DNA of 64,000 nt from Campylobacteraceae bacterium (GTDB lineage: Bacteria; Campylobacterota; Campylobacteria; Campylobacterales; BB28). Both the position numbers and the translations under genes were made by a program. Under the pieces are notes generated by a model that did no database searches, had not been told where the DNA came from, and worked only from the letters and a program-made list of their open reading frames with translations. The stretch spans positions 917 through 64,916 of the forward strand of contig JADGEE010000004.1 of NCBI GenBank assembly GCA_016744535.1, written 5' to 3'. Positions 37,511 to 54,447 of this stretch are shown piece after piece; the stretch's first letter is position 1; every line of letters begins with the position of its first letter.

Positions 37511-38656
37511 ATGGCTTTAGATATAAATAAAATTCATACTCCTTGCTATGTTTGTGAGGAGAAATTACTCCAAAAAAATTTAGACTTATTAAATTTAGTT
37601 CAAGTAGAGTCAGGAGCTAAAATTCTTTTAGCACTAAAGGGTTTTTCTATGTGGTCTACATTTGCTCAAGTTGGTAAAATTTTATACGGAACAGCTGCAA
37701 GTGGACTTTGGGAAGCAAAACTTGGACGAGAAGAGATGAATAGGGAAGTTCATACATTCTCACCTGCTTTTATTGAAGAGGAAATTGATGAAATTTGTAA
37801 AATATCAGAACATATCATATTTAACTCATTTTCTCAATGGAAAAGATTTAGAAACAAAGTAAAAAATGTTAAATGTGGAATTAGGATAAATCCCCAGTAT
37901 TCCGAAGTTACACCTGAAATTTATAACCCTTGTGTTGTTGGAAGTCGCTTTGGAGTAACGAAAGATAATTTTGATAGAGAAGTTGAAGCAGATCCAACTA
38001 TATTAAATGGAATTAGTGGACTTCATTTTCATACTCATTGCGAACAAAATTCGGATGCCTTGGAGCGAACTTTAGTTCATATTGAACAAAAATTTGGAAA
38101 ATACATTGAGAATTTAGAGTGGATAAATTTTGGTGGAGGACATCATATTACACGAAAAAATTATGATATAGAGAAGTTAATAAAAATAATAAAAAAATTT
38201 AAAACTAAATATAATAATATCGAAATCTATTTAGAACCAGGGGAAGCCATTGGTTGGCAAGTTGGTTTTTTAATAGCTAGTGTAATTGATATTGTTAATA
38301 ATGGAATGAATATTGCTATACTTGATGTATCAGCATCAAATCATATGCCAGATTGTTTAGAGATGCCTTATCGTCCAGATATTAGAGGCAGTGGAGAAAT
38401 TAGTGAATTTAATCACAGTTATCGTTTAGGAGGACCTACTTGCTTAGCAGGTGATGTGATTGGTGATTACTCATTTAAAGAGCCTCTTAAAGTTGGTGAT
38501 AAATTGATATTTGAAGATATGATTCACTATACATTTGTTAAAAGTAATACTTTTAATGGAATAAAACTCCCCTCTCTTGGAATTTGGACAAAAAATGATG
38601 AATTTAAATTAGTTAAAAAGTTTTCTTATGAAAATTATAAAAATAGACTCTCTTAA
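37511..38656 (+). CDS. nspC: Carboxynorspermidine decarboxylase (canonical copy)
   Basis: LALKGF PLP lysine, HFHTHCEQN, FGGGHHIT, EPGEA, HMPDCLEMPY, GPTCLAGD, HYTFVK.NTFNG. Confidence 0.93.
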   Translation: MALDINKIHTPCYVCEEKLLQKNLDLLNLVQVESGAKILLALKGFSMWSTFAQVGKILYGTAASGLWEAKLGREEMNREVHTFSPAFIEEEIDEICKISEHIIFNSFSQWKRFRNKVKNVKCGIRINPQYSEVTPEIYNPCVVGSRFGVTKDNFDREVEADPTILNGISGLHFHTHCEQNSDALERTLVHIEQKFGKYIENLEWINFGGGHHITRKNYDIEKLIKIIKKFKTKYNNIEIYLEPGEAIGWQVGFLIASVIDIVNNGMNIAILDVSASNHMPDCLEMPYRPDIRGSGEISEFNHSYRLGGPTCLAGDVIGDYSFKEPLKVGDKLIFEDMIHYTFVKSNTFNGIKLPSLGIWTKNDEFKLVKKFSYENYKNRLS

Positions 38657-39443: not shown

Positions 39444-40934
39444 TTAAGATTTTAATTTAAATCCAAAAATTGTTATATCGTCATTTCTTTCAGCATCTTT
39501 TTGATAATTTTTAAGTTCAACTAAAATACTATTTTTTTGATTTTTAAAGCTATCTTTATAATTTTTAAATAATAAGCCTTCTAATCTTTTCTTTCCAAAA
39601 GTAACTCTACTATTACTTTTATATTGGTCAATCATACCATCAGTTGCAATATAAAAACAACTCTCTGTACTGATATCAACTTCGTGATTTGTAAATTTAA
39701 AGTTTGCTTTTGAGCGTTTATAACCAATTGATTGTTTATCTGGTTTTATACTTTCAAGTTTTTCATTTTGAATATAAAAGATAGATGTTTTAGCACTAGC
39801 AAATATAACTTTTTTATTTTTTGTATCATAAAAAGCAATAGCACCATCAAGTCCCGTATTAGAAGTTGCATCTTTTCTATCTTGTTTTAAAAGAATTTTT
39901 ATTCTTTCACTTAATAGTGATAATATAATAGCTGGATTATTATAATTAGTTTTATTTACAACTGAACTAAAAGCTGCCTTAGTTATCATAGTCATAAATG
40001 CTCCAGTAACACCATGTCCCATACAATCAGCTACCATTATTAAACATCCATCCTCAAACTCTTCAAATAGATATATATCACCACCAACAATATCTTTTGG
40101 TTCCCAAATAACAAAATAGTCATCAAAGAAATTATCCATTGGATTATGAAGAGGTAAAATAGAATTTTGAATCATAGCCGAAAAATTTATATTATCTGTT
40201 ATCTTTTTTTTAGCTTGTTGTAGTTTTTTATGCTCTTCTTGTAACTCTTTAGTTCTCTGTTCTACTTTAAGTTCTAATATTTTTTTTTCTCTCTCCATAG
40301 TTCTAATATATAACATAATGATTGGTATTATAAGTAATAAAAAGAAGAGTCCAGTTAAAATAGCATAAAAAAGCTCATCTCTCAAAATAGATTTAACATC
40401 ACTAATATCCATATCTGCACCAATGATATAAGTTCTTCCATTTGCATCTTTTCTAGCACTTAAAACAGTTTTATAACTACCCCATTTGTCTTCACTATTT
40501 TCAAATATAGGTTCTTTAGCTTCAAAGGCATCATTATAAAATCCTGTAGCATTCTCTTTATAAACATCATAATAGAGAGCTACCATATTTTTTTCAACTT
40601 CCTCTTGAGTATAGTTACCAGAGGTAAATCTAATTGTTGTTCCATCTTTAATAAATGTAGTAAGATAGAGTAAATTATCTACTAAAGCTACATATTCATT
40701 AAGTTTCTCACTCATCTCTGAATATAACTCTTTTGAAATAGAGTTTTCATCAACGATATTGTCGTGATAATCTTTAGGTAAAATTAATGGAATAGCTAAA
40801 GATGCAGTTAATAGCTTGTCCTCTATACCTTTCATAACATCTTGTTCTGTTTTAAGATATGAATAATATCCATATCCTCCAATACCCATTATATAAATAA
40901 CAATTACTAAAAATATAATTGTATGTTTTTTCAT
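39444..40934 (-). CDS. Membrane sensor with SpoIIE/PP2C phosphatase output
   Basis: VGGDIY, VADCMGHGVTGA, TGLDG, ATDGMIDQ, RNDDIT; N-terminal sensor nearly identical in layout to that of the cyclase at 25006-26499. Confidence 0.88.
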   Translation of the reverse strand: MKKHTIIFLVIVIYIMGIGGYGYYSYLKTEQDVMKGIEDKLLTASLAIPLILPKDYHDNIVDENSISKELYSEMSEKLNEYVALVDNLLYLTTFIKDGTTIRFTSGNYTQEEVEKNMVALYYDVYKENATGFYNDAFEAKEPIFENSEDKWGSYKTVLSARKDANGRTYIIGADMDISDVKSILRDELFYAILTGLFFLLLIIPIIMLYIRTMEREKKILELKVEQRTKELQEEHKKLQQAKKKITDNINFSAMIQNSILPLHNPMDNFFDDYFVIWEPKDIVGGDIYLFEEFEDGCLIMVADCMGHGVTGAFMTMITKAAFSSVVNKTNYNNPAIILSLLSERIKILLKQDRKDATSNTGLDGAIAFYDTKNKKVIFASAKTSIFYIQNEKLESIKPDKQSIGYKRSKANFKFTNHEVDISTESCFYIATDGMIDQYKSNSRVTFGKKRLEGLLFKNYKDSFKNQKNSILVELKNYQKDAERNDDITIFGFKLKS

Positions 40935-42904
40935 TCTTTGCCTTTTGGTTTTTTTAGTTTTAATTTTTTTCTATTTGTTAATATAGAATTAGCTAAAGAT
41001 GCTATAAAAGTTCCTTCATAAAATAATATAGAACTAAATATTCCTAAATGAAATAAAAATACACCACCTACAAAAAAGGTAGATGGAATTAAAACTAAAT
41101 TAAAACCTCTTTTAATATTGGAATTAAACTCTTGTGAAATTTCAAATAAATTATCAAGTTCTCTTAAACTCTTATCTAATAAGATAATTTGTGCAGTATC
41201 TGTGGCAATACTTGACGCACCTCTCATTGAGATTGAAACATTAGCTTTTTTTAAAGCTATTGAATCATTTATTCCATCACCTATAAAACATACTTTTTTA
41301 CCATCTTTTTGTAACTTTTCTATTAACATAGATTTATCTTCTGGAAGTGATTGTGCAAAATATTTATCTATTCTTAACTCTTTGGCTAAATGTTTAGTTG
41401 GAATCTCGTGATCACCTGAAATAATATAAATTGATAAATTTCTATTTTTTAGTTTTTCTATAATCTCTTTCGCTTCTTTTCTAATTGTTGGTCTTAACTC
41501 TAAAACTCCTTCTAAAATACTGTCTATTGCTATATAAATAGTAGAGTAACCAAGTTTATTAGCTTTATCTGATAAATTATGTATATTTTGAGGAATATTA
41601 ATCTTCTCTATCTCCATAAATTTTTTACTACCAACTAATATAAATTTATCATCTATTTTAACTTTTATTCCATATCCAATTTCATAATAGTTTTCATCTA
41701 TTGTTAATAATTTTAAATTTCGCTCATTAGCTTTTTTTATAATTGCTTTTGCAATAGGATGAGTTTGTTTATATTCTGCCGTAGCAGCAAAGAGTAAAAT
41801 TTCACTCTTTGTTAAATTATTACAAGTATAAATATCACCAACATATGGTTCTTCTTCTGTAAGAGTTCCAGTCTTATCAAATACGATAGTGTCTATATCA
41901 TTTAATACTTCAAGTGAGCGACCATCTTTTATAAAAATACTGTTTTCATTAGCTAAAGTTAAAAAATTAATCATACTAATAGGAGTTGAAACTCTTATTG
42001 CTTCTGTAAAATTACTACTTAATATAGTAATAGAACTATATGCACCTAAACTAAATAGACCTAATGTGGCTAATCCAACTGTAGGTAAAACTGTATTATC
42101 TGAAATTTTTTCAGCTTTAGTATTCAAAGATAATTCAAAATCATCAGTAGAATTTAGAACTTGTTCAATTTGAGTTGCAATACTTTGCTCACCTGTAGTT
42201 TGAACTTTAATATAAATTTTTCCAGCAATTACAATAGTAAAGGCAAATACACTATCACCTTTCTCTTTTTCACTAGGTTGTGCCTCTCCTGTTAAGGCTT
42301 GTTGATTTATAGTTGCAATTCCAGCCTCAACCACTCCATCTATTGGAATAACTTCTCCAGCATTAACTACAATTATGTCTCCTATTGAGAGTTTAGATAT
42401 TTCTATTTTTGTCTCTATATTATGAGTAACTAACCATACAAAACTTGGTCTTTCCGTAAAAACTTTAATTATATTTTTACGATTTTTATCTCTAGTTCTC
42501 TCCAGTAATTCAATTGATGAAAAATATACTAAATTTAGTACACTTGTAAAAAAATAGTATCCATAACTTAAACCTGCTATTATCGCAACTGAATCTAATA
42601 TTTCAACTTTTATTTTTCTATTTTTTAAGTTTATGAAAGCCTTTTTAAATATAGGAAAACCTACATATAAATTTATAGGAATTGCTGTTAAAGCTATTGG
42701 CTTATAAAGAAGAGTACCTAAAATAGTTGTACCAACCCCAATCAATGAAGTTTTCAAATAAAAGCTATTCTCTTTTTCACTTAAAATAGTATTTTTTGGC
42801 TCGTTCTCTTGTACTTTATCATCTTTATCTTTAATCTTATTATATATACTATTCCCAACATATATAGCACCAGCACCTATTGCTACAGCGACTAAATGTA
42901 ACAT
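40931..42904 (-). CDS. P1B-type ATPase with atypical TM metal motif (P1B-6/FezB-like)
   Basis: LTGE, DKTGT, HP, TGD-like SGDH, GDGINDS; NFTEAIRVSTP where CPC or DYSC is expected. Confidence 0.85.
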   Translation of the reverse strand: MLHLVAVAIGAGAIYVGNSIYNKIKDKDDKVQENEPKNTILSEKENSFYLKTSLIGVGTTILGTLLYKPIALTAIPINLYVGFPIFKKAFINLKNRKIKVEILDSVAIIAGLSYGYYFFTSVLNLVYFSSIELLERTRDKNRKNIIKVFTERPSFVWLVTHNIETKIEISKLSIGDIIVVNAGEVIPIDGVVEAGIATINQQALTGEAQPSEKEKGDSVFAFTIVIAGKIYIKVQTTGEQSIATQIEQVLNSTDDFELSLNTKAEKISDNTVLPTVGLATLGLFSLGAYSSITILSSNFTEAIRVSTPISMINFLTLANENSIFIKDGRSLEVLNDIDTIVFDKTGTLTEEEPYVGDIYTCNNLTKSEILLFAATAEYKQTHPIAKAIIKKANERNLKLLTIDENYYEIGYGIKVKIDDKFILVGSKKFMEIEKINIPQNIHNLSDKANKLGYSTIYIAIDSILEGVLELRPTIRKEAKEIIEKLKNRNLSIYIISGDHEIPTKHLAKELRIDKYFAQSLPEDKSMLIEKLQKDGKKVCFIGDGINDSIALKKANVSISMRGASSIATDTAQIILLDKSLRELDNLFEISQEFNSNIKRGFNLVLIPSTFFVGGVFLFHLGIFSSILFYEGTFIASLANSILTNRKKLKLKKPKGKE

Positions 42905-42928: not shown

Positions 42929-43861
42929 TTAATTTAAAAAATGAGATAGTGATGTAAAATCTTGAGTTTTATTAAATTGTTTAATACCCTCTTTGATTTT
43001 CAATTTAAAATTAGGTGTATATGTATAATCACCATAAGTTTCCGCATTATTTTCTGACCATAATCCTGTGTATATAGGTATATTATTTAAATCTCTTGTT
43101 TGGGCTATTACTTTTAAAACACTCTCAATTTTTGGTGGTTTATACTTATGCAAAGCAAACTCTTTTGCTAGAGCTGAACCTTTTGCTACATAAACAGGAT
43201 TTAAATATATTATAATTTCTGTATTATATTTTTGACATATTTTATACAGATATTCTATTGTTGCTTTTGCCTCCTCTATTCCATCTTCTTCACTCATAGT
43301 AGGTGAAGGTTTTAATAAAACATAAGAGGTTAATCTAATTCCTAGTTCTCCTAATAATTTTACTTTTTTTTCAAAAATATTTTTTTTCATATTTTTTTTT
43401 AAAATAACTTCTCTTATATAATCATCTTGAGATTCAAATCCTACTGTAACATCAATTTTTTTTGCATTTGTCATTTGCAAAGTTTCTATGATTTTTTCTC
43501 TATTTATATATTCAGGTCTAGTCTCTAAAGATAAAACTTCTAAATATGGAAGTTTTTCACTAGCATTTTGTAAAAGATACTCCATTGCATCTTTGGGAAA
43601 TCTCTGTCTATCTAAAATTGAACCCTCATTTCCAACTGATAACTGTCTGAATTTATCTAAATTATTTGCATATTTATCAAAAACCCAATCAATTTGTCTC
43701 TCTATCTGCTCAACTGATAAAGGCTCATCGTGTGAGGCTTCAGGAAGGTTACAAAAACTACACTCAAATTGACATCTTTGGGCATAAAAACTTATTACTA
43801 AATCTTTTTTACCTAAAAAAGTTCTATCTCCATCATATATTGGTAAAGGAAACTCTTGCAT
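42929..43861 (-). CDS. Radical SAM protein, RaSEA/TIGR01210-like (copy 2)
   Basis: CQFECSFC (CxxxCxxC), GSILD, LETRPEY, VGFES, YVLLKP, LNPVYV. Confidence 0.8.
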   Translation of the reverse strand: MQEFPLPIYDGDRTFLGKKDLVISFYAQRCQFECSFCNLPEASHDEPLSVEQIERQIDWVFDKYANNLDKFRQLSVGNEGSILDRQRFPKDAMEYLLQNASEKLPYLEVLSLETRPEYINREKIIETLQMTNAKKIDVTVGFESQDDYIREVILKKNMKKNIFEKKVKLLGELGIRLTSYVLLKPSPTMSEEDGIEEAKATIEYLYKICQKYNTEIIIYLNPVYVAKGSALAKEFALHKYKPPKIESVLKVIAQTRDLNNIPIYTGLWSENNAETYGDYTYTPNFKLKIKEGIKQFNKTQDFTSLSHFLN

Positions 43862-44409
43862 TAAAATAACTCCCCAGATATAAAATTTTTTAAATAACTC
43901 TCTTTATCTCTATTTTCCATCTTTGTCTCTAAATACTCTTGCCATAAATCATACTCAAACTTCATTATTCTAATCTCCCAAGTACAAGCAACACCTGTTT
44001 TATCTAAAGTTTTTTTAGAAAGATTAGGATATGAATCCTCTATTGTATAAGTATATGTAAATAAGACATTTCCTCTTCCCCAAATATTTATACTTAAAAA
44101 TCCTTGAGATAAAATTGCAAATCCAACCCCTTGTTTTATATCAATACTATTATTATCAATCTCTTTTTTTATGAAATCATTTAAACCATCAATTAAATTT
44201 TGAGGAAGAGGTTGGCTCTCTCTTAACATATGATATAGTTTTATAATAATTTTATCGTGTACAAAAAAACCAATAGGTTTAGAACTTCTTTTAATATATT
44301 GGTATGTTTTTTTGTATTGATCCGCTAAATTATCAATATTGCAGTGATTTTTAATATAATTCTTATCTACAAAAGATGGTAATTCAATTTCTATTTCTAT
44401 TGATTGCAT
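43861..44409 (-). CDS. Hypothetical protein
   Basis: 182-aa ORF coupled to both neighbours; GVGFAIL and ACTWEIRIMKFEYDLW segments look like a conserved uncharacterised family. Confidence 0.6.
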   Translation of the reverse strand: MQSIEIEIELPSFVDKNYIKNHCNIDNLADQYKKTYQYIKRSSKPIGFFVHDKIIIKLYHMLRESQPLPQNLIDGLNDFIKKEIDNNSIDIKQGVGFAILSQGFLSINIWGRGNVLFTYTYTIEDSYPNLSKKTLDKTGVACTWEIRIMKFEYDLWQEYLETKMENRDKESYLKNFISGELF

Positions 44410-44452
44410 TTTTACTTATCCTCTCTTTTAATAACTCTAAAATTTATTTTTT

Positions 44453-45406
44453 TTAAAAAAATGTTACAAACTCAGGTTTACAACTACAATTAGGAAGGTT
44501 ACTAAGTAGCAATTTAATATTATGATGTTTGTTAAATTTATTAATCTCTTCTCTAAATTTCGCATCACACTTCCCACAATTACACGGAAAAGAATCTAAA
44601 TTATTATTCTCTGTTGATAAACCTAAATGGATCGTAAAAGGAAGCTCTTTTATAAGATATAACATTTGAGCAAGACTCCACAATTTTGGAGATGTATAAT
44701 TAGCCTCTTTCGCTATAGTAGAAAATTTTGTATCTTTTACAACATAAACTGGACTAATATCGATTATAAATGTTGTATTATACTTTTTAGCTAATTTATC
44801 AAGATATTTAAGTGTAATTACACTATCTTCAATACCCTCTTCTTCAGTCATATATGGAGATGGTTTTAGTAGAGTGTATATTTTAATAAAAATATTATTA
44901 TCTGCCAATAATTTAATTTTCTCTTCAAATAGTTTTTTAGAAAGAGCTTTTTTTAACACTTTTTGTCTAATATAATCATCACTTGTCTCAAAACCAACAG
45001 CAAATTCAAATGGTACATTTCCCAAAACAGATTTTAATTCATCAATTTTTTTTTGGGTAATAAAATCTATTCTAGTTTCAAGACTTAGTTTTGGAAATAA
45101 TTTACCTACATATTCTGTGATTTTTACTAAAGTTGAAAATGTTAAAGTTTTTTCATCCAATAATGAACCATCGTTTCCAAAAGAAAATAACTCAACCTCG
45201 TGAAGTCTATCTTTATATCTCTCAATTACATCATAAATTTGTTGAATAATATCTTTATCAGATATTTTAAAATCTTGATTTTGAGATCTATAAGCACACA
45301 TTAAACAGTTAAAACGACACGGTTTTGTTCTTAGTGATACTGTTAGCTCTTTACCATCTGGCCCATTATACAATCCTTGATATGTCGGAGTAATATTTTG
45401 ATTCAT
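44453..45406 (-). CDS. Radical SAM protein, RaSEA/TIGR01210-like (copy 1)
   Basis: LRTKPCRFNCLMCAY, GSLLD, LETR, VGFETSDD, YTLLKP, PKLWS and C-terminal NCGKCD. Confidence 0.85.
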   Translation of the reverse strand: MNQNITPTYQGLYNGPDGKELTVSLRTKPCRFNCLMCAYRSQNQDFKISDKDIIQQIYDVIERYKDRLHEVELFSFGNDGSLLDEKTLTFSTLVKITEYVGKLFPKLSLETRIDFITQKKIDELKSVLGNVPFEFAVGFETSDDYIRQKVLKKALSKKLFEEKIKLLADNNIFIKIYTLLKPSPYMTEEEGIEDSVITLKYLDKLAKKYNTTFIIDISPVYVVKDTKFSTIAKEANYTSPKLWSLAQMLYLIKELPFTIHLGLSTENNNLDSFPCNCGKCDAKFREEINKFNKHHNIKLLLSNLPNCSCKPEFVTFF

Positions 45407-46167
45407 TGTTTTTCCTTACCCTTAAACTCTTCATATTCTTGTTGCATAATCATATCAACACAACTATAGCCTCCATCAATTACAATAGTTGAACCATTAA
45501 TAAAACTAGCATTATCTGAAACTAAAAAACTAACAAGATTAGCAACCTCTTTAGAAGTACCATTTCTACCAAGAGGTGTTATATTATATGCTTTACTCGA
45601 AGATTCAGAATACTCTGTACCAGAATCTACCCAACCAATTGCAATAGCATTAACCCTAATTTTTTTAAGTCCTAAATTATTAGCTAAGCTTTTAGTAACA
45701 CTTCGTTGAGCTGAACGACTAGCACTGTGTGAAATACTTAAAAATGAACCACTAAAAGAATCCACTCCTACTATATTGACGACAGAACCTCCTTCTTTGA
45801 TACTATTTTGAAGTTTTAATACGATTAAAAAAGGAGCTGTTACATTTACTTCAAACTCTTTATCCCATATTTCCATATTAAAATCATCAAACTCATTTAA
45901 TGAAAATATCCCTGCACAATTAATAATAGTATCAAAAGAAATTTTTTTTAATTTATCAATAAAAGCTAAAGTCTCTTTCCGTTTACTAAAATCTACTTTA
46001 AATATTTCTATATTTTGTAACTGTTTTTTAATCAACTTTGCTTCGTTTTCTCTAGTATTATAAGTTCCATAGATAAAAAAACCTTTATTGACTAATTCTT
46101 CACAAATCTTTTTCCCAATTCCGCTAGATATACCTGTAACTAAAGCTATTTTTGTTATATTTATCAT
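45403..46167 (-). CDS. Short-chain dehydrogenase/reductase with non-canonical active site
   Basis: TGISSGIG, NCAG, IRVNAI, NGS..VIDGG; HSASR in place of YxxxK. Confidence 0.85.
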   Translation of the reverse strand: MINITKIALVTGISSGIGKKICEELVNKGFFIYGTYNTRENEAKLIKKQLQNIEIFKVDFSKRKETLAFIDKLKKISFDTIINCAGIFSLNEFDDFNMEIWDKEFEVNVTAPFLIVLKLQNSIKEGGSVVNIVGVDSFSGSFLSISHSASRSAQRSVTKSLANNLGLKKIRVNAIAIGWVDSGTEYSESSSKAYNITPLGRNGTSKEVANLVSFLVSDNASFINGSTIVIDGGYSCVDMIMQQEYEEFKGKEKQ

Positions 46168-46907
46168 TATTTTTTTACAACTCTAAAACTCAAACCATTT
46201 CCTCTGACACTTAATTTATTCCAATCTCTCGCTGCACATCTAATTAAATCATATGAATATTTCCATCCTGCACTTCTAACAACTTTTAATTTATTTAAAT
46301 CATTAATATTTTCTCGTCCATCATTTTCTTGATATGGATATATAAACTCTGGATTATCTTTATCTTTACCCCATATAGTGCTTGTCCATTCCCAAGTATT
46401 ACCAGCCATATCAAATAAGCCATAATAACTCTTACCTAACTCATAAAAATCTACACTATTAGTATCACCTATGAATTTTTCAAAATTTGCAAACTTATTA
46501 CTTATTTTCTCATTTCCCCAAGGATAGACTCTCTTATCATCTCCTCTTGCTGATTTCTCCCACTCTGCCTCTGTTGGTAACTGGACACCAGCCCAATCAC
46601 AAAATGCTTTTGCATCAAGCCAAGTTACCCAAACAATAGGGTGATTAGCTTTTTTAGTTGGAAATCCATCTCTCCAAATTTTATCTCTATCTTTCCAATC
46701 GTAATTGCTAGCTTCTAAAAAAACTCTCCATTGCGTATTTGTAATAAGAGTTTTTGTTATATAAAATTCATCTAAATATATTTTATGTTGAGGTAATTCA
46801 GTTTTTTTAGCCCATTCACTTTTTGACGCAACTATATCCTCTTTTAAATCTGTCCCCATCCAAAATTTACCTTTTGGAATTTTTACCCAATCAAATTTTA
46901 TCTTCAT
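46167..46907 (-). CDS. Formylglycine-generating enzyme (FGE-sulfatase) domain protein
   Basis: FWMG, HPIVWVTWLDA, LPTEAEWEKSARG, YPWG, DMAGNTWEW, RCAAR, SFRVV. Confidence 0.9.
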   Translation of the reverse strand: MKIKFDWVKIPKGKFWMGTDLKEDIVASKSEWAKKTELPQHKIYLDEFYITKTLITNTQWRVFLEASNYDWKDRDKIWRDGFPTKKANHPIVWVTWLDAKAFCDWAGVQLPTEAEWEKSARGDDKRVYPWGNEKISNKFANFEKFIGDTNSVDFYELGKSYYGLFDMAGNTWEWTSTIWGKDKDNPEFIYPYQENDGRENINDLNKLKVVRSAGWKYSYDLIRCAARDWNKLSVRGNGLSFRVVKK

Positions 46908-46918
46908 AAACTCTCTCT

Positions 46919-48058
46919 CTAAACTAATTTATCTCTATAATAACTATAATCAAACTCTTTAATTAATTTAAAATTATTATCTTTTGTCCATATTCCAAGT
47001 GATGGTAACTTTATCCCATTAAAAGTATTATTTCTAACAAAACTATAAATAGCCATATTCTCAAAAATAACTTTATCTCCAACTTTTAAGAGTTCTTTAA
47101 AAGAGTAATCTCCTATCATATCACCAGCTAAGCAACTAACTCCTCCAAATCTATAACTATATTTGAATTCATCTGCTTTACCTGCTAAATAAACTTTTGG
47201 CTGTATTGACATCTCAATAACATCAGGCATATGATTTGAGGCTGATACATTTAAAATTGCAACTTGCATACTATTTTCGATAATATCTAATACACTACCT
47301 ACTAATACACCAGCATTTAATGCCACAGCTTCTCCTAGTTCAAAATATATATCTATATTATATTTACTCTTAAAATTTTTAATTATATCAATTAACTTTT
47401 CTATATTGTAATCATCTTTAGTTATTAAGTGTCCTCCACCAAAATTAATCCACTCTAAATCTTTTAAGTATTTTCCAAATTTATCTTCTATAACTTTAAG
47501 AGTTCGCTCTAATGCATCTACGTTTTGTTGGCAATGTGTATGAAAGTGTAAACCACTAATTTGATTTAATAGATTTTCATCTTCTTTAATCTCTCTTTTA
47601 AAAACTTTTTCTATAACTCCTAATCGACTTCCTTCTGCACAAGTATTATACACTTCTTGAGAGACTTCTGAATATTCGGGATTAATTCGTAAACCTATTT
47701 TTTTATCTCTGCATCTATTTGAAAATTTTTTTAATTGACTAAAAGAGTTAAAAATTATATGATTTGAGTTATTACAAATTTCATCTATATCATTTTCACA
47801 AAAAGCAGGTGAGTATGTGTGAACCTCTTTTTGAAAAAACTCTTTTCCAAGCTTAGCCTCCCACAATCCGCTGGTTGAAACACCATATAAATATTTTCCA
47901 ATTAAAGGAAAAGTCTCACACAAAGCATAACCTTTTAGGGCAAGTAAAATTTTAGCTCCACTCTCATTTTGAATATGATTTAATTTTTGTAAGTTTTTTT
48001 CAAGTAAATTCTCTATTACAACATAACAAGGTGATGGAATTAAATTTAAATCAATCAA
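46919..48058 (-). CDS. Second, diverged NspC-like PLP-dependent decarboxylase
   Basis: LALKGY, HFHTHCQQN, FGGGH, CLAGD; colinear with nspC at 37511; TTG start after GGAGG. Confidence 0.88.
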   Translation of the reverse strand: MIDLNLIPSPCYVVIENLLEKNLQKLNHIQNESGAKILLALKGYALCETFPLIGKYLYGVSTSGLWEAKLGKEFFQKEVHTYSPAFCENDIDEICNNSNHIIFNSFSQLKKFSNRCRDKKIGLRINPEYSEVSQEVYNTCAEGSRLGVIEKVFKREIKEDENLLNQISGLHFHTHCQQNVDALERTLKVIEDKFGKYLKDLEWINFGGGHLITKDDYNIEKLIDIIKNFKSKYNIDIYFELGEAVALNAGVLVGSVLDIIENSMQVAILNVSASNHMPDVIEMSIQPKVYLAGKADEFKYSYRFGGVSCLAGDMIGDYSFKELLKVGDKVIFENMAIYSFVRNNTFNGIKLPSLGIWTKDNNFKLIKEFDYSYYRDKLV

Positions 48059-48220: not shown

Positions 48221-48772
48221 ATGAGTATGGAAGTAGAAAATAATAGTGGAGTTGAAACTCAAGACTTATTAGAAGAGAATAAAGTGTTAAAAGCTAATGA
48301 GGTTATTAAAAATAGTGTTATAGCGTCAATGGGTGTTAGTGTCATTCCTGTACCAATAGTTGATTTAGTAGGATTAGGTACTATTCAATTAAATATGATT
48401 CATAATTTGTGTCTATTATATAATCAAGAGTTTTCAAAAACATTGGGTAAATCTTTTGTAGGCTCACTTATAGGTAGTTTAGGTGCTTTACCAGTTGCTG
48501 CAGGAGTTTCTAGTTTAATAAAAATTATTCCTGTTGTTGGACATACTTTGGGTGCTGTATCTATGCCTTTGGTTGGTGGTGCTTCAACTTATGCAATTGG
48601 TAAAGTTTTTATTCAACATTTTGAATCTGGTGGAACTTTTTTAGATTTCAACCCATCTCAAGTAAAAGAGTATTTTAAAGAGCAATTTAAAAATGGTAAA
48701 GATATTGTAAAAAATGTTAAAAGTACAACTGATGAAAAAAATATAGCAGAAGTAAAAAATACAGCAGAATAA
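48221..48772 (+). CDS. DUF697/YcjF-family membrane-associated protein
   Basis: IPVPIVD..QL.MI..L...Y, Gly-rich hydrophobic segments, TYAIGKVF..HFESGGT. Confidence 0.75.
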   Translation: MSMEVENNSGVETQDLLEENKVLKANEVIKNSVIASMGVSVIPVPIVDLVGLGTIQLNMIHNLCLLYNQEFSKTLGKSFVGSLIGSLGALPVAAGVSSLIKIIPVVGHTLGAVSMPLVGGASTYAIGKVFIQHFESGGTFLDFNPSQVKEYFKEQFKNGKDIVKNVKSTTDEKNIAEVKNTAE

Positions 48773-50416
48773 ATGATATTTGAGTTATTTAATTTTTTAA
48801 AAAGAGAGGGTGATTTTAAATTTTGGAAAAAAGTCGCAATATTAGCTACAATAGCTGGAATGGCTAATGCTTCACTTCTCTCAATAGTAAATACAGGTGC
48901 TGAATTAGTTGAAGATGAGAGTGAAAATTATAGATTTTTTGCTATGTATATAACAGTATTTATGATATTTTTTATTGCTAAAAAAAGTGCTTTGCTTAAA
49001 GCTAATGCTCAAATGGAAGTAATCATACATAATGTTAGAAATAGAATATCAAACAAGTTAAGTTTATGTGAATTATCTACCATAGAATCTTTAGATACAG
49101 CTTCAGTATTTGTAAGATTAACTAAAGATGCGAGTGTCGTAGCAAATATTACTTTATCTATAACAAATGCTACTCAATCAATAATAATGATGTTTTTTGC
49201 ATTAATATATGTTTTTTATATATCTCCTATAACATTTTTTATAATAATAGTTACAATTATCTGTGGGATTTTGATATATCTATCTCATTCAAAAAATATC
49301 CGTGAGGGACTTATAAAGAGTTATAAAATTGAAGATGAGTTCTTTCACTTAATTAACGGTATTTTAAAAGGTTTTAAAGAGTTAAAAATAAATAGTGATA
49401 AAAACAGAAGCTTTTTAAAAGAGAAACAAATTATTTTAGATAAACTTTTAATTTTAAGAAAAGAATCAGGTAGTAGATTTGTTATAAATATGATTTTTAG
49501 TGAAGTTTTTTTATATATACTCTTAGGTTCTATTATTTTTATAATCCCACACTTTATTCCAGAGAAAAATAGTGAAGTTATAAAAATAGTTGCTACAACT
49601 CTATTTATTATAGGTCCTCTTACTATGACATCTGCACTTATTCCTACAATTTCAAAAGCTAGTATAGCTGCAAAATCTCTATATGACTTGGAGTTAATAT
49701 TAGATAAAAATCAAAAAAATTTAGTTCAACCAATTGAGAAAGCAGAACCTATTAAAAGTAATTTCAACACCATAGAGTTAAAAAAGTTAGAGTTTCACTA
49801 TTTAGATAAAGATAAAAGTGAACTATTTGCAATAGGTCCTATAGATTTAGAGATAAAAAAAGGGGAGTTAATATTTATAATTGGTGGAAATGGCAGTGGA
49901 AAATCAACTTTTATAAAAGCACTTATAGGTCTATATTTTCCACATAAAGGGAGTATAAGTATTGATAATGAATTAATTGGAAGTTATAATTATCAGACAT
50001 ATAGAAATCTTTTTAGTATAATTTTAACAGATTTTTATATTTTTAAAAAAATATATGGACTAGAAAATATAAGATATTCAAAAGTAAACCAACTTTTAGT
50101 TGAAATGCAAATAGAGAATAAGACAAAATTTGTTGATAACTCTTATACAAATGTTAATTTATCAACAGGACAGAGAAAGAGGTTAGCACTCATTACTTCA
50201 ATATTAGAAGATAAACCTATATATGTATTTGATGAGTGGGCGGCTGACCAAGACCCTGAATTTAGAAAATATTTTTATAATGAGATATTAAAGACTCTAC
50301 AAGCGAGTGGAAAAACAGTAATAGCTGTAACTCACGATGACGCATATTTTGATATGGCAGATAGAATTTTTAAAATGGAGTATGGAAAATTAAATGAGTA
50401 TTTTAGAAAAAGTTAA
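48773..50416 (+). CDS. Cyclic-peptide export ABC transporter (PvdE/SyrD/YojI family, fused permease-ATPase)
   Basis: Six TM segments, GFKELK, GGNGSGKST, LSTGQRKRLAL, FDEWAADQDPEFR, VTHDD. Confidence 0.93.
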   Translation: MIFELFNFLKREGDFKFWKKVAILATIAGMANASLLSIVNTGAELVEDESENYRFFAMYITVFMIFFIAKKSALLKANAQMEVIIHNVRNRISNKLSLCELSTIESLDTASVFVRLTKDASVVANITLSITNATQSIIMMFFALIYVFYISPITFFIIIVTIICGILIYLSHSKNIREGLIKSYKIEDEFFHLINGILKGFKELKINSDKNRSFLKEKQIILDKLLILRKESGSRFVINMIFSEVFLYILLGSIIFIIPHFIPEKNSEVIKIVATTLFIIGPLTMTSALIPTISKASIAAKSLYDLELILDKNQKNLVQPIEKAEPIKSNFNTIELKKLEFHYLDKDKSELFAIGPIDLEIKKGELIFIIGGNGSGKSTFIKALIGLYFPHKGSISIDNELIGSYNYQTYRNLFSIILTDFYIFKKIYGLENIRYSKVNQLLVEMQIENKTKFVDNSYTNVNLSTGQRKRLALITSILEDKPIYVFDEWAADQDPEFRKYFYNEILKTLQASGKTVIAVTHDDAYFDMADRIFKMEYGKLNEYFRKS

Positions 50417-51236
50417 ATTTATTAAAAACATTTCTATATTTTTAATTATGTTTATATTGACAGTCATAGCTTTAATACTTTTAATATGGCATAGAGTTTT
50501 TATAACTGTTGAAGCTGGTGAGGCTGGAGTTTTGTTTAAAAGATGGTCAGGTACTGTTATTGATAGAGTATATTCAGAGGGGTTTTGGATAATCTTTCCG
50601 TGGGATAAACTTACAAGATATAATTTAAGAATACAAGAGATAAAACACGATTTTGCTGTTTTATCTAAACAGGGATTAACAATTGATATTAAAATTTCTA
50701 TTAGATTTAGACCTGATTCTAATATGGTAAGTATATTGCATCAAAAAATTGGTCCAAATTATATAACTTCAGTTGTAATTCCAGAGGTTGAAGCAGTAAT
50801 TAGAAGATTTTTTGGACAATTTAATGATGAAGAGATTTATACTTCTAAAAAAGCTATTTTAGAAAAAATTATAAATGATTCAAGAGAAGAGTTATCTGAT
50901 AAGTTTATAATTTTAGATGATTTAATTGTAAGAAAAATAGAGTTTCCAAAAACTGTCCAAGACTCTATTCAAAGTAAAATAACTCAATATCATAAATTTA
51001 AAGAGTATGAATATAGAATAGAGAGAGAGAAGCTTGAGGCTGAGAGGAAAGTGATAGAAGCGAATGGTATAGATAAATATAAGAGAATAATTTCAAAAGA
51101 TTTGACAGATAATTATTTAAGATGGAAAGGTATAGAGGCTACTAATAATTTAGCAATATCTGATAATAGTAAAGTTGTTATTATAGGTGCTGGAAAAGAT
51201 GGTCTTCCATTAATATTAAACCCTGATACAAAGTGA
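50394..51236 (+). CDS. SPFH/prohibitin (band 7) family protein
   Basis: N-terminal TM, VEAGEAGVLF, C-terminal coiled coil EKLEAERKVIEA.GI. Confidence 0.88.
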   Translation: MSILEKVKFIKNISIFLIMFILTVIALILLIWHRVFITVEAGEAGVLFKRWSGTVIDRVYSEGFWIIFPWDKLTRYNLRIQEIKHDFAVLSKQGLTIDIKISIRFRPDSNMVSILHQKIGPNYITSVVIPEVEAVIRRFFGQFNDEEIYTSKKAILEKIINDSREELSDKFIILDDLIVRKIEFPKTVQDSIQSKITQYHKFKEYEYRIEREKLEAERKVIEANGIDKYKRIISKDLTDNYLRWKGIEATNNLAISDNSKVVIIGAGKDGLPLILNPDTK

Positions 51237-51240
51237 TAAA

Positions 51241-52443
51241 TTGAGATTTATAAAATATTTATTACCTATTATATTTATTTTTCTAATAACAATTTTTATT
51301 ATAGATAAAAAATATCTTCAAGCTTATGATTATCAAACTTTAAAGATACAAAGGGAAAATTTTGCTTTAAATGCAAAAGAAGATGACCCAATTGTAATAG
51401 GAGTTGTTTGGTCATTTGAAGAAGCAAAAAAAGTGGGAGATAATTTTAAAGAGGGAGTTGAATTTGCAATTGAAGAGTTAAACTCTAATGGAGGAGTTTT
51501 AAATAGAGAGATAGAATCTATTTTTGAAGAAGATTATATGGATGTTGATACCGCAGTTAATATTGCAAAAAATTTTTCTTTAAATGAAGAAGTTATAGCC
51601 GTAGTTGGATATGCTTTTTCAGATTTAGCAATACAGAGTTCAATTGTTTATGATTACAGTGGTATTGTAATGATATCCCCAGGTTCTTCTGACCCACTAT
51701 TTACAAGAGATGATTTTAATTATATATTTAGAACTGTTCCAAATGATATAGAGATTGGAAAAGCTATGACTAAAATGTGTAAGCTGAAAAATTTTCAAAA
51801 AGTAGCTGTTTTATACGAAAAAAATAATTATGCTACAATTTTAGCAAATGTTTTTATTGAAAATGCACTTGAACTTGGAACAAAAGTTGTTTATAAAGCA
51901 AACTTTAATGAAAATGAAAAATTTTTTACAGAGATAATCACAAATTTATCTCCTATTACAAATTATAATATTGATTACGATGCTATAGTTGTAATAGGTT
52001 ATGATAAAAGTGTTCCTTTACTTATAAAAAAAGCTAGAGATAAAGGTGTCTCTGCACCATTTTTAACAAGTGATATGTTAGATTTAAAAAAAGTTTTAAC
52101 TATGGGAGGTTTTTTTAATAATACAATTATAACTACAATATTCAATTCTGAAACTCTAAATTTAAAGACACAAAATTTTCTTGAAAAATTTAAAAAAAGA
52201 TATAATTTTTATCCTGATACTTGGGCAGCACAAGGCTATGATGCGATTATGCTTTTAGCTGAAGCTATAAAACGCTCAAATAGCACAAACCCTGCAAGTA
52301 TTTCAGAAAATTTAAAATATATTAAAAATTTTGAAAGTATTTTTGGAAAATACTCTATGACTCCAAAAGGAGATGTAGAGGGAAAAGGTGTCTATTTTAA
52401 AATAATTAAAGATGGTAAATTTAAATATTTAAATTTAAATTAA
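51241..52443 (+). CDS. Type 1 periplasmic binding protein (branched-chain amino acid/LivJ-like)
   Basis: GVEFAIEELN..GGVL.R, VVGY..S, FRTVPND, AQGYDA motifs. Confidence 0.85.
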   Translation: MRFIKYLLPIIFIFLITIFIIDKKYLQAYDYQTLKIQRENFALNAKEDDPIVIGVVWSFEEAKKVGDNFKEGVEFAIEELNSNGGVLNREIESIFEEDYMDVDTAVNIAKNFSLNEEVIAVVGYAFSDLAIQSSIVYDYSGIVMISPGSSDPLFTRDDFNYIFRTVPNDIEIGKAMTKMCKLKNFQKVAVLYEKNNYATILANVFIENALELGTKVVYKANFNENEKFFTEIITNLSPITNYNIDYDAIVVIGYDKSVPLLIKKARDKGVSAPFLTSDMLDLKKVLTMGGFFNNTIITTIFNSETLNLKTQNFLEKFKKRYNFYPDTWAAQGYDAIMLLAEAIKRSNSTNPASISENLKYIKNFESIFGKYSMTPKGDVEGKGVYFKIIKDGKFKYLNLN

Positions 52444-54277: not shown

Positions 54278-54279
54278 TT

Positions 54280-54447
54280 ATGATACACACTATTATATTG
54301 ATAGTGATATATATTTTTATATGTTACTTGATTGCATTTTTGGGTAGAAATAAAAAATTTGGTTTTTGGGGATACCTATTTTTGTCAATTGCATTAACTC
54401 CTATTGTTGGATTTATCGCTTTTTTAGCAGCAGAGAACAAAAAATGA
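54280..54447 (+). CDS. Small two-TM membrane protein (55 aa), absent from the ORF track
   Basis: MIHTIILIVIYIFICYLIAFLGRNKKFGFWGYLFLSIALTPIVGFIAFLAAENKK*; starts 2 nt after the upstream stop and its stop overlaps the secretin ATG. Confidence 0.7.
   Translation: MIHTIILIVIYIFICYLIAFLGRNKKFGFWGYLFLSIALTPIVGFIAFLAAENKK

What the first reader, a model, noticed from the sequence alone, without database searches (positions are those of the whole stretch)
42929..45406. Tandem bacterial paralogues of the archaeal RaSEA radical SAM family
Seen: both carry CxxxCxxC and share ETR, VGFE(T/S).DDYIR, Y.LLKPSP.M.EE.GIE and PVYV; only copy 1 keeps the C-terminal NCGKCD. Known: RaSEA/TIGR01210 works with ArcS on tRNA G15 in archaea; bacteria do not make archaeosine in tRNA. 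Seen: no tgt, que or arcS genes nearby. Inference: new radical C-N lyase-type chemistry, with two sequential steps or a heterodimer.
Basis: partly seen in the sequence, partly recalled or inferred. Interest (0 to 1): 0.75.

Follow-up and report, generated by a model that had tools for sequence, protein, structure and literature searches.

The report
Radical-SAM pair with unknown partner protein
The two flagged genes are real radical-SAM enzymes distantly related to the archaeal tRNA enzyme RaSEA, but they are not recent duplicates; each belongs to a rare, horizontally spread gene cassette built around an unstudied 182-residue protein, and the cassette most likely makes and exports an unknown amine-type small molecule.

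Summary
Both ORFs (44453-45406 and 42929-43861, minus strand) are radical SAM proteins. Their best family match is RaSEA/TIGR01210, at 146 and 120 bits, far below the 212-bit cut-off; true RaSEAs score 342-364.

They are 37% identical but belong to two old, separate subfamilies, g1 and g2, in a sister clade of RaSEA. The constant partner is the 182-aa gene between them, U182:
- 50-80% identical across cyanobacteria, Gammaproteobacteria, Desulfobacteraceae and DPANN archaea.
- Confident AF2 model, with no PDB fold match and no Pfam family.
- A g1 or g2 enzyme lies beside U182 in 21 of 25 loci, and only the window has both.

Recurrent neighbours:
- an FGE-like domain lacking the copper cysteines, or a methyltransferase;
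- four unrelated kinds of basic-amino-acid decarboxylase;
- aminotransferases or amino-acid dehydrogenases;
- NRPS/PKS genes;
- a TIGR01194-type ABC exporter with DUF697, SPFH and a binding protein;
- an atypical P1B-like ATPase, twice fused to the g1 enzyme.

No tgt, que or arcS genes are linked. The module is absent from 400 other genomes of the phylum.

Best reading: an acquired biosynthesis-and-export cluster for an amine or polyamine-derived metabolite. The chemistry is unproven. C-N cleavage is suggested because both characterised relatives, RaSEA and queuine lyase, do that.

The parts
44453..45406 (-). rSAM1: RaSEA-like radical SAM enzyme, subfamily g1. It has a canonical CxxxCxxC motif and keeps the C-terminal CxxC...CxC motif.
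   Evidence: PF04055 at 32 bits and TIGR01210 at 146 bits against a 212-bit cut-off. The g1 clade has 100% support. Orthologues are 49-53% identical (L001, L002/3), and two are fused to the C-terminus of a P1B-like ATPase (L024, L026 = P0069).
43861..44409 (-). U182: a conserved 182-aa protein of unknown function, the constant partner of the radical SAM enzymes.
   Evidence: No Pfam, NCBIfam or PADLOC hit. There are 61 homologue clusters at 48-79% identity in bacteria and archaea, with 48 invariant columns in a 26-sequence alignment. The AF2 model has pLDDT 89, and no PDB fold or sequence match was found. A g1 or g2 radical SAM gene lies beside it in 21 of 25 loci.
42929..43861 (-). rSAM2: RaSEA-like radical SAM enzyme, subfamily g2. 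It has a canonical CxxxCxxC motif and has lost the C-terminal Cys motif.
   Evidence: TIGR01210 at 120 bits. About 90 homologue clusters lie at 44-63% identity. Orthologues sit next to the FGE-like gene and U182 in cyanobacteria and Beggiatoa, and in U182 clusters of Woesearchaeota.
46167..46907 (-). FGE-sulfatase-fold protein that lacks the two copper-binding cysteines of formylglycine-generating enzyme.
   Evidence: PF03781 at 162 bits. Orthologues are 58-64% identical in 10 U182 loci. The alignment to human FGE shows no Cys pair. Across 9 orthologues, 99 columns are invariant and only one Cys (C103) is invariant.
45403..46167 (-). SDR-fold protein whose Ser/Tyr/Lys catalytic triad is replaced by Gly/His/Arg. 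It is specific to the window.
   Evidence: PF13561 at 138 bits. The alignment to CylG and FabG pairs NISSTS...YSATK with NIVGVDS...HSASR. No orthologue was found in the other loci.
46919..48058 (-). NspC2: the second carboxynorspermidine-decarboxylase paralogue and first gene of the operon.
   Evidence: TIGR01047 at 472 bits against a 409-bit cut-off. It is 63% identical to the housekeeping copy at 37511-38656. It is more diverged from solved CANSDC structures than copy 1 (385 against 438 bits) and has changes in motifs conserved there. The congener genome has only one nspC.
40931..42904 (-). P1B-like P-type ATPase with an acidic residue (TEA) where the metal-binding CPx or SCA motif would be.
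   Evidence: TIGR01525 at 387 bits. Orthologues are 37-43% identical in L018, L024, L026 and L027, all beside U182, and two are fused to the g1 radical SAM enzyme. The shared TM4 motif is N[FLY][TL][ED]xxRx[SG]xP.
39444..40934 (-). Membrane PP2C (SiaA-like) phosphatase, last gene of the operon. Its start overlaps the ATPase stop by 4 nt. It is probably regulatory, and its membership of the cluster is uncertain.
   Evidence: PF07228 at 72 bits and NF038263 at 242 bits, below its cut-off. It is not conserved in the other loci.
48221..48772 (+). DUF697 membrane protein, first gene of the divergent operon.
   Evidence: PF05128. Homologues lie beside g1 or g2 loci L001, L002 (two copies) and L030.
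48773..50416 (+). ABC exporter of the 'cyclic peptide export' type, with fused permease and ATPase.
   Evidence: TIGR01194 at 341 bits against a 286-bit cut-off. Homologues are 30-34% identical in L002/L003, and two copies flank rSAM2-FGE-U182 in L030.
50394..51236 (+). SPFH/Band 7 protein.
   Evidence: PF01145. A homologue lies in the same position in L030.
51241..52443 (+). Periplasmic binding protein of the Peripla_BP_6 family.
   Evidence: PF13458. Homologues lie in the U182 loci L007 and L030.

Best explanation
The two genes are radical SAM enzymes of two distinct subfamilies, g1 and g2, in a bacterial/archaeal sister clade of RaSEA. They are neither archaeosine enzymes nor recent duplicates.

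Each type elsewhere works within a cassette whose constant member is U182, a 182-aa protein with a fold that has no solved match. In the window, both types flank a single U182 inside an eight-gene operon: NspC2, FGE-like, SDR-like, rSAM1, U182, rSAM2, P1B-like ATPase, PP2C. The operon faces a DUF697, ABC exporter, SPFH and binding-protein operon.

Inferred mechanism:
1. A basic amino acid or carboxy-polyamine is decarboxylated to an amine. Here NspC2 does this; in other loci an Arg/Orn-type or a pyruvoyl Arg decarboxylase takes that place.
2. The radical SAM enzyme, held in a complex with U182 as RaSEA is with ArcS, abstracts a hydrogen next to a nitrogen. It then cleaves or rearranges a C-N bond of the amine, amidine or guanidine substrate.
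3. The FGE-like protein or a methyltransferase tailors the product.
4. The ABC exporter and/or the P1B-like pump exports the product.

Shown: family placement, module conservation, gene linkage and horizontal spread. Inferred: a small-molecule product, a U182-rSAM complex and C-N chemistry.
For: Family placement:
- TIGR01210 is the top hit, below its cut-off (146 and 120 bits against 212). True RaSEAs score 342-364.
- The tree separates a RaSEA clade from a sister clade that holds g1 and g2 as non-sister groups.
- A profile of the family matches queuine lyase 6P78 at E 1.5e-15, ahead of Elp3.
- Per PMC11298593, RaSEA acts only in a complex with ArcS.

Module:
- U182 is flanked by a g1 or g2 enzyme in 21 of 25 loci. 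The other four are short contigs.
- The order rSAM2-FGE-U182 is kept in Allocoleopsis, Beggiatoa, Calothrix, Microcoleus and others.

Small-molecule or amine context:
- NspC-like decarboxylase in the window.
- Orn/Arg-decarboxylase fused to an aminotransferase, in L017 and L018.
- Pyruvoyl arginine decarboxylase in L030.
- Group II PLP decarboxylase beside a g2 relative in Kribbella.
- Aminotransferase in L025 and amino-acid dehydrogenase in five archaeal-type loci.
- GNAT acetyltransferase and deacetylase in L017.
- NRPS/PKS genes adjacent in L001, L009 and L025.

Export:
- TIGR01194 ABC exporter with DUF697, SPFH and a binding protein, repeated in L030 and partly in L001 and L002.
- P1B-like ATPase in five loci, two of them fused to g1.

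Acquisition:
- U182 is absent from 60 relatives and from 400 other genomes of the phylum.
Against: - No product, substrate or activity is known for any g1, g2 or U182 protein.
- The window cluster has no ATP-dependent ligase or other obvious conjugating enzyme, so the ArcS-like role of U182 is conjecture.
- The minimal cyanobacterial cassette (rSAM2, FGE-like, U182, ferredoxin) has no decarboxylase or exporter, so these are accessories and not core functions.
- The SDR has lost its catalytic triad and may be inactive.
- FGE-fold enzymes, a PRMT5-like methyltransferase (L026) and B12-radical SAM enzymes (L017, L026) also fit protein modification.
- The very high conservation of U182 is unusual for a biosynthetic accessory.
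Confidence: 0.5

Rival explanations
1. Protein modification system. U182 is itself the substrate, or a scaffold or carrier. The radical SAM enzymes, the FGE-like protein and the methyltransferases modify it, possibly with a polyamine-derived group in the way hypusine or EF-P modifications are made.
For: - U182 is far more conserved than its enzymes, at 50-80% identity with 48 invariant columns.
- Canonical FGE enzymes act on proteins.
- A PRMT5-like arginine methyltransferase and a B12-radical SAM enzyme lie beside U182 in L026.
- U182 has an invariant WGRGN stretch.
- The best NCBIfam hit of the SDR is the EF-P 5-aminopentanone reductase YmfI, although it is below the cut-off.
Against: - Many neighbours are small-molecule enzymes: decarboxylases, aminotransferases, amino-acid dehydrogenase, an HMGL-like enzyme, and NRPS/PKS genes.
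- Dedicated exporters are linked.
- The many invariant polar residues of U182 look like an active site or a ligand pocket.
- No modification site can be named.
Confidence: 0.15
2. Metal-handling system. The cassette makes a metallophore or metal-binding amine, and the P1B-like ATPase moves the metal, not the organic product.
For: - A P1B-type ATPase lies in five U182 loci and is fused to g1 in two.
- The ABC exporter belongs to the family that includes siderophore exporters, TIGR01194.
- NspC-type decarboxylases feed polyamine-based siderophores (established knowledge).
- The loci come from sulfidic mat or sediment organisms.
Against: - The ATPase lacks any Cys or His metal motif in TM4 (TEA, TEI, LDN, LDT) and has no metal-binding domain.
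- Most U182 genomes lack an orthologue of this ATPase.
- No siderophore synthetase, receptor or metal regulator was seen in the cluster.
Confidence: 0.12
3. One reading: the two radical SAM proteins are tandem duplicates that work as a heterodimer, or in two obligatory sequential steps.
For: - They flank one U182 gene in one operon with overlapping or near-overlapping reading frames.
- They share 37% identity.
- Only one of them keeps the extra four-Cys motif, which could mean a division of labour.
Against: - Each has closer orthologues in other phyla than the other copy.
- They are not sisters in the tree.
- Among 21 related loci with a radical SAM gene, only the window carries both types. 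Each type with U182 is therefore self-sufficient elsewhere.
Confidence: 0.08
4. A 7-deazaguanine pathway like those of the two characterised relatives: archaeosine-type modification of RNA or DNA, or queuine-type salvage.
For: RaSEA and queuine lyase, the only characterised relatives, both act on 7-deazaguanines.
Against: - Scores are far below the RaSEA cut-off and the proteins fall outside its clade.
- No tgt, arcS or que genes appear in the window or in any annotated related locus.
- The single tgt of the genome is on another contig.
- There are no hits to defence-system models.
Confidence: 0.04

Closest known systems
RaSEA (TIGR01210), the radical SAM partner of ArcS in euryarchaeal archaeosine synthesis
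   Same: It is the best-scoring family for both proteins. The core motifs are shared (ETR, GFE..D, LLKP.P..TE.E). rSAM1 also keeps the C-terminal CxxC...CxC motif. RaSEA works only in a complex with a partner protein (PMC11298593), as is proposed here for U182.
   Different: - Scores are 146 and 120 bits, against 342-364 for true RaSEAs.
- The window proteins sit in a separate clade.
- The cluster motif is the canonical CxxxCxxC, where RaSEA has Cx8-9CxxC.
- There is no ArcS or ArcTGT.
- The organism is bacterial.
- The gene neighbourhood is one of small-molecule biosynthesis and export.
Queuine lyase (PDB 6P78), the radical SAM enzyme of bacterial queuine salvage
   Same: It is the nearest solved structure by profile search (E 1.5e-15, covering the radical SAM core). 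It is also a C-N bond-cleaving enzyme.
   Different: It is much shorter (251 aa). Only the N-terminal half aligns. A single-sequence search does not find it. No queuosine salvage genes are linked.
Other uncharacterised bacterial RaSEA-like enzymes paired with ATP-dependent ligases (AsnB-like, PaaK-like, ATP-grasp), noted elsewhere in this scan
   Same: They belong to the same sister superfamily of RaSEA and share the theme of a dedicated partner protein inside small biosynthetic operons. An AsnB/ArgJ fusion lies beside a g2 relative in L021, and an ATP-grasp protein lies upstream of rSAM2 in Beggiatoa.
   Different: Here the constant partner is U182, which resembles no known ligase. The window cluster contains no ligase at all.
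arsQML arsinothricin cluster (transporter, methyltransferase, non-canonical radical SAM enzyme ArsL)
   Same: The layout is similar to L024: transporter, radical SAM enzyme and methyltransferase. An ACP-radical transfer product would be exactly the kind of substrate an NspC-type decarboxylase takes (PMC8552651; this second point is my inference).
   Different: ArsL is 428 aa with its Cys motif at residues 194-201. No sequence relationship to it was detected here, and no arsenic genes are linked.

Membership tests
RaSEA (NCBIfam TIGR01210, equivalog) | Whole-protein score at or above the curated cut-off of 212.15 bits | tested here: not met
   rSAM1 scores 146.3 bits and rSAM2 120.4. Archaeal controls P0004, P0006 and P0007 score 342-364 bits.
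RaSEA (NCBIfam TIGR01210, equivalog) | Placement inside the clade of bona fide RaSEA sequences | tested here: not met
   In a maximum-likelihood tree of 84 sequences, the RaSEA clade (34 rows, 99% support) excludes both window proteins. They lie in the sister clade (50 rows, 99% support).
RaSEA (NCBIfam TIGR01210, equivalog) | Co-occurrence with ArcS and ArcTGT, and action on preQ0-tRNA | tested here: not met
   The genome has a single PF01702 (TGT-family) gene, on contig C112 and not on the window contig. None appears in the annotated related loci. Activity on tRNA cannot be tested with these tools.
RaSEA (NCBIfam TIGR01210, equivalog) | C-terminal CxxC...CxC motif, as seen in the four RaSEA sequences aligned here | tested here: inconclusive
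   The motif is present in rSAM1 and all g1 orthologues, and absent from rSAM2 and all g2 orthologues.
Radical SAM superfamily (PF04055) | CxxxCxxC cluster motif, and a Pfam score at or above 29.5 bits | tested here: met
   The motif is present in both proteins. rSAM1 scores 32.0 bits. rSAM2 scores 26.5 bits (E 8e-6), just under the Pfam cut-off, but it aligns full-length to family members.
Queuine lyase | Sequence or profile similarity to PDB 6P78 over the whole protein | tested here: inconclusive
   The profile of alignment A2 matches 6P78 at E 1.5e-15, but only over profile positions 22-167. A single-sequence search finds nothing. This shows homology, not membership.
Formylglycine-generating enzyme (for the FGE-fold neighbour) | Pair of copper-binding catalytic cysteines (Cys336 and Cys341 in human FGE) | tested here: not met
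   In the alignment to human FGE, MCHRSYCYRY pairs with a Cys-free stretch. No such Cys is conserved in 9 orthologues.
Carboxynorspermidine decarboxylase NspC (TIGR01047) (for the first operon gene) | Score at or above the curated cut-off of 409 bits | tested here: met
   It scores 472 bits. Residues that are conserved in solved CANSDCs and in copy 1 are changed: CEQ to CQQ, MPYRP to MSIQP, GPT to GVS. Substrate specificity was not tested.
P1B heavy-metal ATPase (for the downstream pump) | CPx-type (or SCA-type) metal-binding motif in TM4 | tested here: not met
   TIGR01525 scores 387 bits against a 346-bit cut-off. The motif position reads TEA, and in orthologues TEI, LDN and LDT.

The most novel reading that the evidence does not exclude
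U182 together with a RaSEA-like radical SAM enzyme is a new two-protein machine that works on small molecules the way ArcS-RaSEA works on tRNA. U182, with its new fold, would bind or conjugate an amine, amidine or guanidine substrate, and the radical SAM enzyme would cleave a C-N bond. The result would be a previously unknown polyamine- or agmatine-derived metabolite. The metabolite would leave the cell through a P1B-like ATPase whose metal-binding Cys is replaced by Glu or Asp. That would be the first P1B-type pump for an organic cation, and in some organisms it is physically fused to the enzyme, so that synthesis is coupled to export.
Probability: 0.12. Interest if true: 0.85.

Novelty: new variant of a known kind. 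Interest (0 to 1): 0.62.

Why it matters
Only two members of the RaSEA-like superfamily have known functions, and both cleave C-N bonds on 7-deazaguanines. This module shows that a large sister clade has moved into small-molecule pathways.

It defines a compact, testable unit: a radical SAM enzyme, a 182-aa protein with no known fold relative, and an FGE-like protein or a methyltransferase. The unit has spread between cyanobacteria, sulfur bacteria, a Campylobacterota-like lineage and DPANN archaea.

Solving it would assign chemistry to two radical SAM subfamilies, give a function to a new protein family, and perhaps reveal a new amine metabolite. It could also explain an atypical P-type ATPase that is fused to a biosynthetic enzyme.

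Tried and rejected
- **Single-sequence AF2 model of U182.** It was useless (pLDDT 36). The alignment-based model was good, but Foldseek against the PDB gave nothing (best E 0.03, TM 0.2), and a profile search of PDB sequences gave nothing.
- **Literature.** Searches for TIGR01210, for RaSEA with biosynthetic cluster, for QueL with RaSEA, for FGE-like with radical SAM, and for NspC with radical SAM found no description of this module.
- **ArsL and arsinothricin as a model.** This was considered, but no sequence link was found.
- **Defence-system reading.** It was prompted by the TIR fusions in the superfamily. No PADLOC hits were found.
- **Island borders.** I tried to define them by comparison with the congener genome. 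Only nspC1 and the LRR gene are syntenic, so no empty site could be shown.
- **Promoter and terminator scan.** It was uninformative in this AT-rich DNA: 80 sites against 63 expected.
- **U182-like domain in Kribbella or L021.** I looked for one hidden in the large neighbours of g2 relatives there. None was found.
Full report
**1. What is there**

The minus strand between 48058 and 39444 carries eight tightly packed genes, with overlaps of 1-4 nt or gaps of 11-43 nt:

| Gene | Coordinates |
|---|---|
| NspC paralogue (NspC2) | 46919-48058 |
| FGE-sulfatase-fold protein | 46167-46907 |
| SDR-fold protein | 45403-46167 |
| Radical SAM protein 1 (rSAM1) | 44453-45406 |
| 182-aa protein with no family (U182) | 43861-44409 |
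| Radical SAM protein 2 (rSAM2) | 42929-43861 |
| P1B-type ATPase | 40931-42904 |
| PP2C phosphatase | 39444-40934 |

A divergent operon starts at 48221. It encodes DUF697, a TIGR01194-type ABC exporter, an SPFH protein and a periplasmic binding protein.

**2. Check of the observation**

- Both flagged ORFs carry CxxxCxxC and the quoted shared motifs. They align at 37% identity, E 2e-51.
- The best NCBIfam model for both is RaSEA/TIGR01210, at 146 and 120 bits. The curated cut-off is 212 bits.
- Three archaeal controls score 342-364 bits.
- Only copy 1 keeps NCGKCD. It also keeps a second Cys pair (NCSCK). Together these form a CxxC...CxC motif that archaeal RaSEA shares.
- RaSEA itself has an insertion in the cluster motif (Cx8-9CxxC), while both window proteins have the canonical spacing.
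- The only TGT-family gene of the genome is on another contig.

**3. The two genes are not tandem duplicates**

A maximum-likelihood tree of 84 sequences splits the superfamily in two. One clade holds the RaSEA sequences (34 rows, 99% support). The sister clade (50 rows, 99% support) holds both window proteins.

- rSAM1 belongs to a small, well-supported group, g1 (100% support). Its orthologues are 49-53% identical.
- rSAM2 belongs to a much larger group, g2. It has about 90 clusters at 44-63% identity.
- The two groups are not sisters.

An exhaustive HMMER search over 1.8 billion representatives found only two other g1 representatives and 1061 superfamily members in all.

A profile of the family finds queuine lyase (PDB 6P78) as the nearest solved structure, at E 1.5e-15. 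Elp3 follows far behind at 1.5e-7. Both characterised relatives are C-N bond-cleaving enzymes.

**4. The real constant: U182**

U182 has no Pfam, NCBIfam or PADLOC hit. Even so, it has 61 homologue clusters at 48-79% identity. They come from Allocoleopsis, Beggiatoa, Candidatus Kentrum, Desulfobacteraceae and Woesearchaeota. In a 26-sequence alignment, 48 columns are invariant and none of them is a histidine.

An alignment-based AF2 model is confident (pLDDT 89, pTM 0.83). Its order of secondary-structure elements is beta-beta-alpha-beta-beta-beta-alpha-alpha. It has no significant PDB fold match (best E 0.03, TM about 0.2) and no PDB sequence match.

I gathered 25 non-redundant U182 loci and clustered all neighbouring ORFs. 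A g1 or g2 radical SAM gene is present in 21 of them. The four without one are short or truncated contigs. Only the window has both types.

**5. Variants of the module**

| Type | Loci | Gene content |
|---|---|---|
| (a) | Cyanobacteria and Beggiatoa | rSAM2, FGE-like, U182, often followed by a [2Fe-2S] ferredoxin |
| (b) | Woesearchaeota-type | methyltransferase, U182, HMGL-like enzyme, methyltransferase, amino-acid dehydrogenase, 436-aa unknown, rSAM2 |
| (c) | L024 | ATPase::g1 fusion, methyltransferase, U182 |
| (c) | L026 | ATPase::g1 fusion, B12-radical SAM, PRMT5-like methyltransferase, U182, FGE-like |
| (d) | L030 | DUF697, SPFH, binding protein, NMT1-like protein, pyruvoyl arginine decarboxylase, ABC, rSAM2, FGE-like, U182, ABC |
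| (e) | L018 | U182, Orn/Arg decarboxylase-aminotransferase fusion, P1B-like ATPase |
| (e) | L017 | the same fusion with GNAT, deacetylase and B12-radical SAM |

Further points:
- In type (c), the two fusion proteins are 60% identical to each other.
- Type (d) mirrors the window's divergent operon.
- In L001, L009 and L025 the cassette sits beside NRPS/PKS genes, including an AprA-like loading module.
- g2 relatives without U182 (Kribbella L020, and L021) form a separate subclade. They sit in SARP-regulated biosynthetic clusters next to a group II PLP decarboxylase or an AsnB/ArgJ fusion.

**6. What this suggests**

Four evolutionarily unrelated decarboxylases of basic amino acids or carboxy-polyamines occupy the neighbourhood:
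- NspC-like;
- Orn/Arg-decarboxylase fold;
- pyruvoyl-dependent;
- group II PLP-dependent.

Aminotransferases or amino-acid dehydrogenases, acetylation and deacetylation enzymes, NRPS/PKS genes and dedicated exporters recur with them. This pattern is typical of a small-molecule pathway that passes through an amine.

RaSEA needs ArcS as a physical partner (PMC11298593). Both known relatives cleave C-N bonds. I therefore propose that U182 is the partner that presents the substrate, and that the radical SAM enzyme performs hydrogen abstraction next to nitrogen followed by C-N cleavage or rearrangement. This step is inference.

g1 and g2 combine with the same accessories (U182, ATPase, DUF697/ABC, FGE-like or methyltransferase). 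They therefore probably play equivalent roles. The window, which has both, may run two related steps or may be a merger of two cassette variants.

**7. Accessory proteins are atypical**

- **FGE-like protein.** It lacks the copper-binding cysteine pair.
- **SDR.** It has Gly/His/Arg in place of Ser/Tyr/Lys.
- **NspC2.** It passes the NspC cut-off but has changes at positions conserved in solved enzymes and in the housekeeping copy. The congener genome has only one nspC.
- **ATPase.** It passes the P1B model but has an acidic residue and an Arg where the CPx or SCA motif sits, and its four orthologues share this. Other U182 genomes lack an orthologue, so it is an optional accessory.

**8. Distribution**

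- U182 is absent from 60 relatives of the same order, including the one congener, and from 400 other genomes of the phylum.
- A pattern scan of one genome for each of 185,579 species found 8 loci.
- The module is rare, patchy across two domains and highly conserved. That fits horizontal transfer.
- The GC content of the cluster (27-29%) is at the upper end of the window's range of 20-35%.

**9. Rivals**

- **Protein modification of U182.** It remains possible, given FGE-type, PRMT5-like and B12-radical SAM neighbours and the extreme conservation of U182. It fits the many small-molecule enzymes and exporters poorly.
- **Metallophore or metal role.** It is possible but lacks any metal motif.
- **7-deazaguanine role.** It is unlikely.
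- **Heterodimer of the two radical SAM enzymes.** It is unlikely, because each occurs alone elsewhere.

**10. Limits**

- The organism could not be named.
- The island borders could not be set.
- No paper describing the module was found.

Noticed in passing
window 45403-46167 (-): This SDR-fold protein has an intact TGxxxGIG nucleotide-binding motif, but all three catalytic residues are replaced: Ser to Gly, Tyr to His, Lys to Arg. Its best solved relative is CylG.
   Followed up: partly
window 40931-42904 (-); L018, L024, L026, L027: A distinct P1B-like ATPase clade has the TM4 motif N[FLY][TL][ED]xxRx[SG]xP in place of CPx or SCA. In two metagenomic loci the ATPase carries the g1 radical SAM enzyme as a C-terminal fusion, giving proteins of 1026 and 1055 aa.
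   Followed up: partly
P0178, P0181, P0197, P0112, P0111, P0106 (hits): Other members of the RaSEA-like superfamily are fused to TIR domains, to a YcaO domain, to a class I methyltransferase, or to an ABC ATPase with an NMT1-like domain. This points to further unexplored roles, possibly including defence.
   Followed up: no
window 46919-48058 (-) and 37511-38656 (+): There are two nspC genes, 63% identical. The cluster copy has changes at positions conserved in solved CANSDC structures: CEQ to CQQ, MPYRP to MSIQP, GPT to GVS. The congener genome has only the housekeeping copy.
   Followed up: partly
L008/L015, L014, L032-L034: Woesearchaeota-type loci carry a conserved seven-gene cluster: methyltransferase, U182, HMGL-like enzyme, methyltransferase, Glu/Leu/Phe/Val-type dehydrogenase, a 436-aa unknown protein, and rSAM2. 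This is unexpected in DPANN archaea, which have small genomes.
   Followed up: partly
window 52460-56162 (+): Downstream of the binding protein lie two more genes. One is a 605-aa protein with SBP_bac_3 and PEGA domains. The other is a 598-aa protein with GspD N0 and Secretin_N domains but no Pfam hit to a secretin C-domain. Whether they belong to the export module is unknown.
   Followed up: no
L009 13526-20253 (Calothrix sp. CCY 0018): An AprA-like loading module (AprA_N, WH, MT2, GNAT, ACP) and a C-A-T-TE NRPS lie directly downstream of rSAM2, FGE-like, U182 and a methyltransferase. This is a candidate small hybrid natural-product cluster.
   Followed up: no
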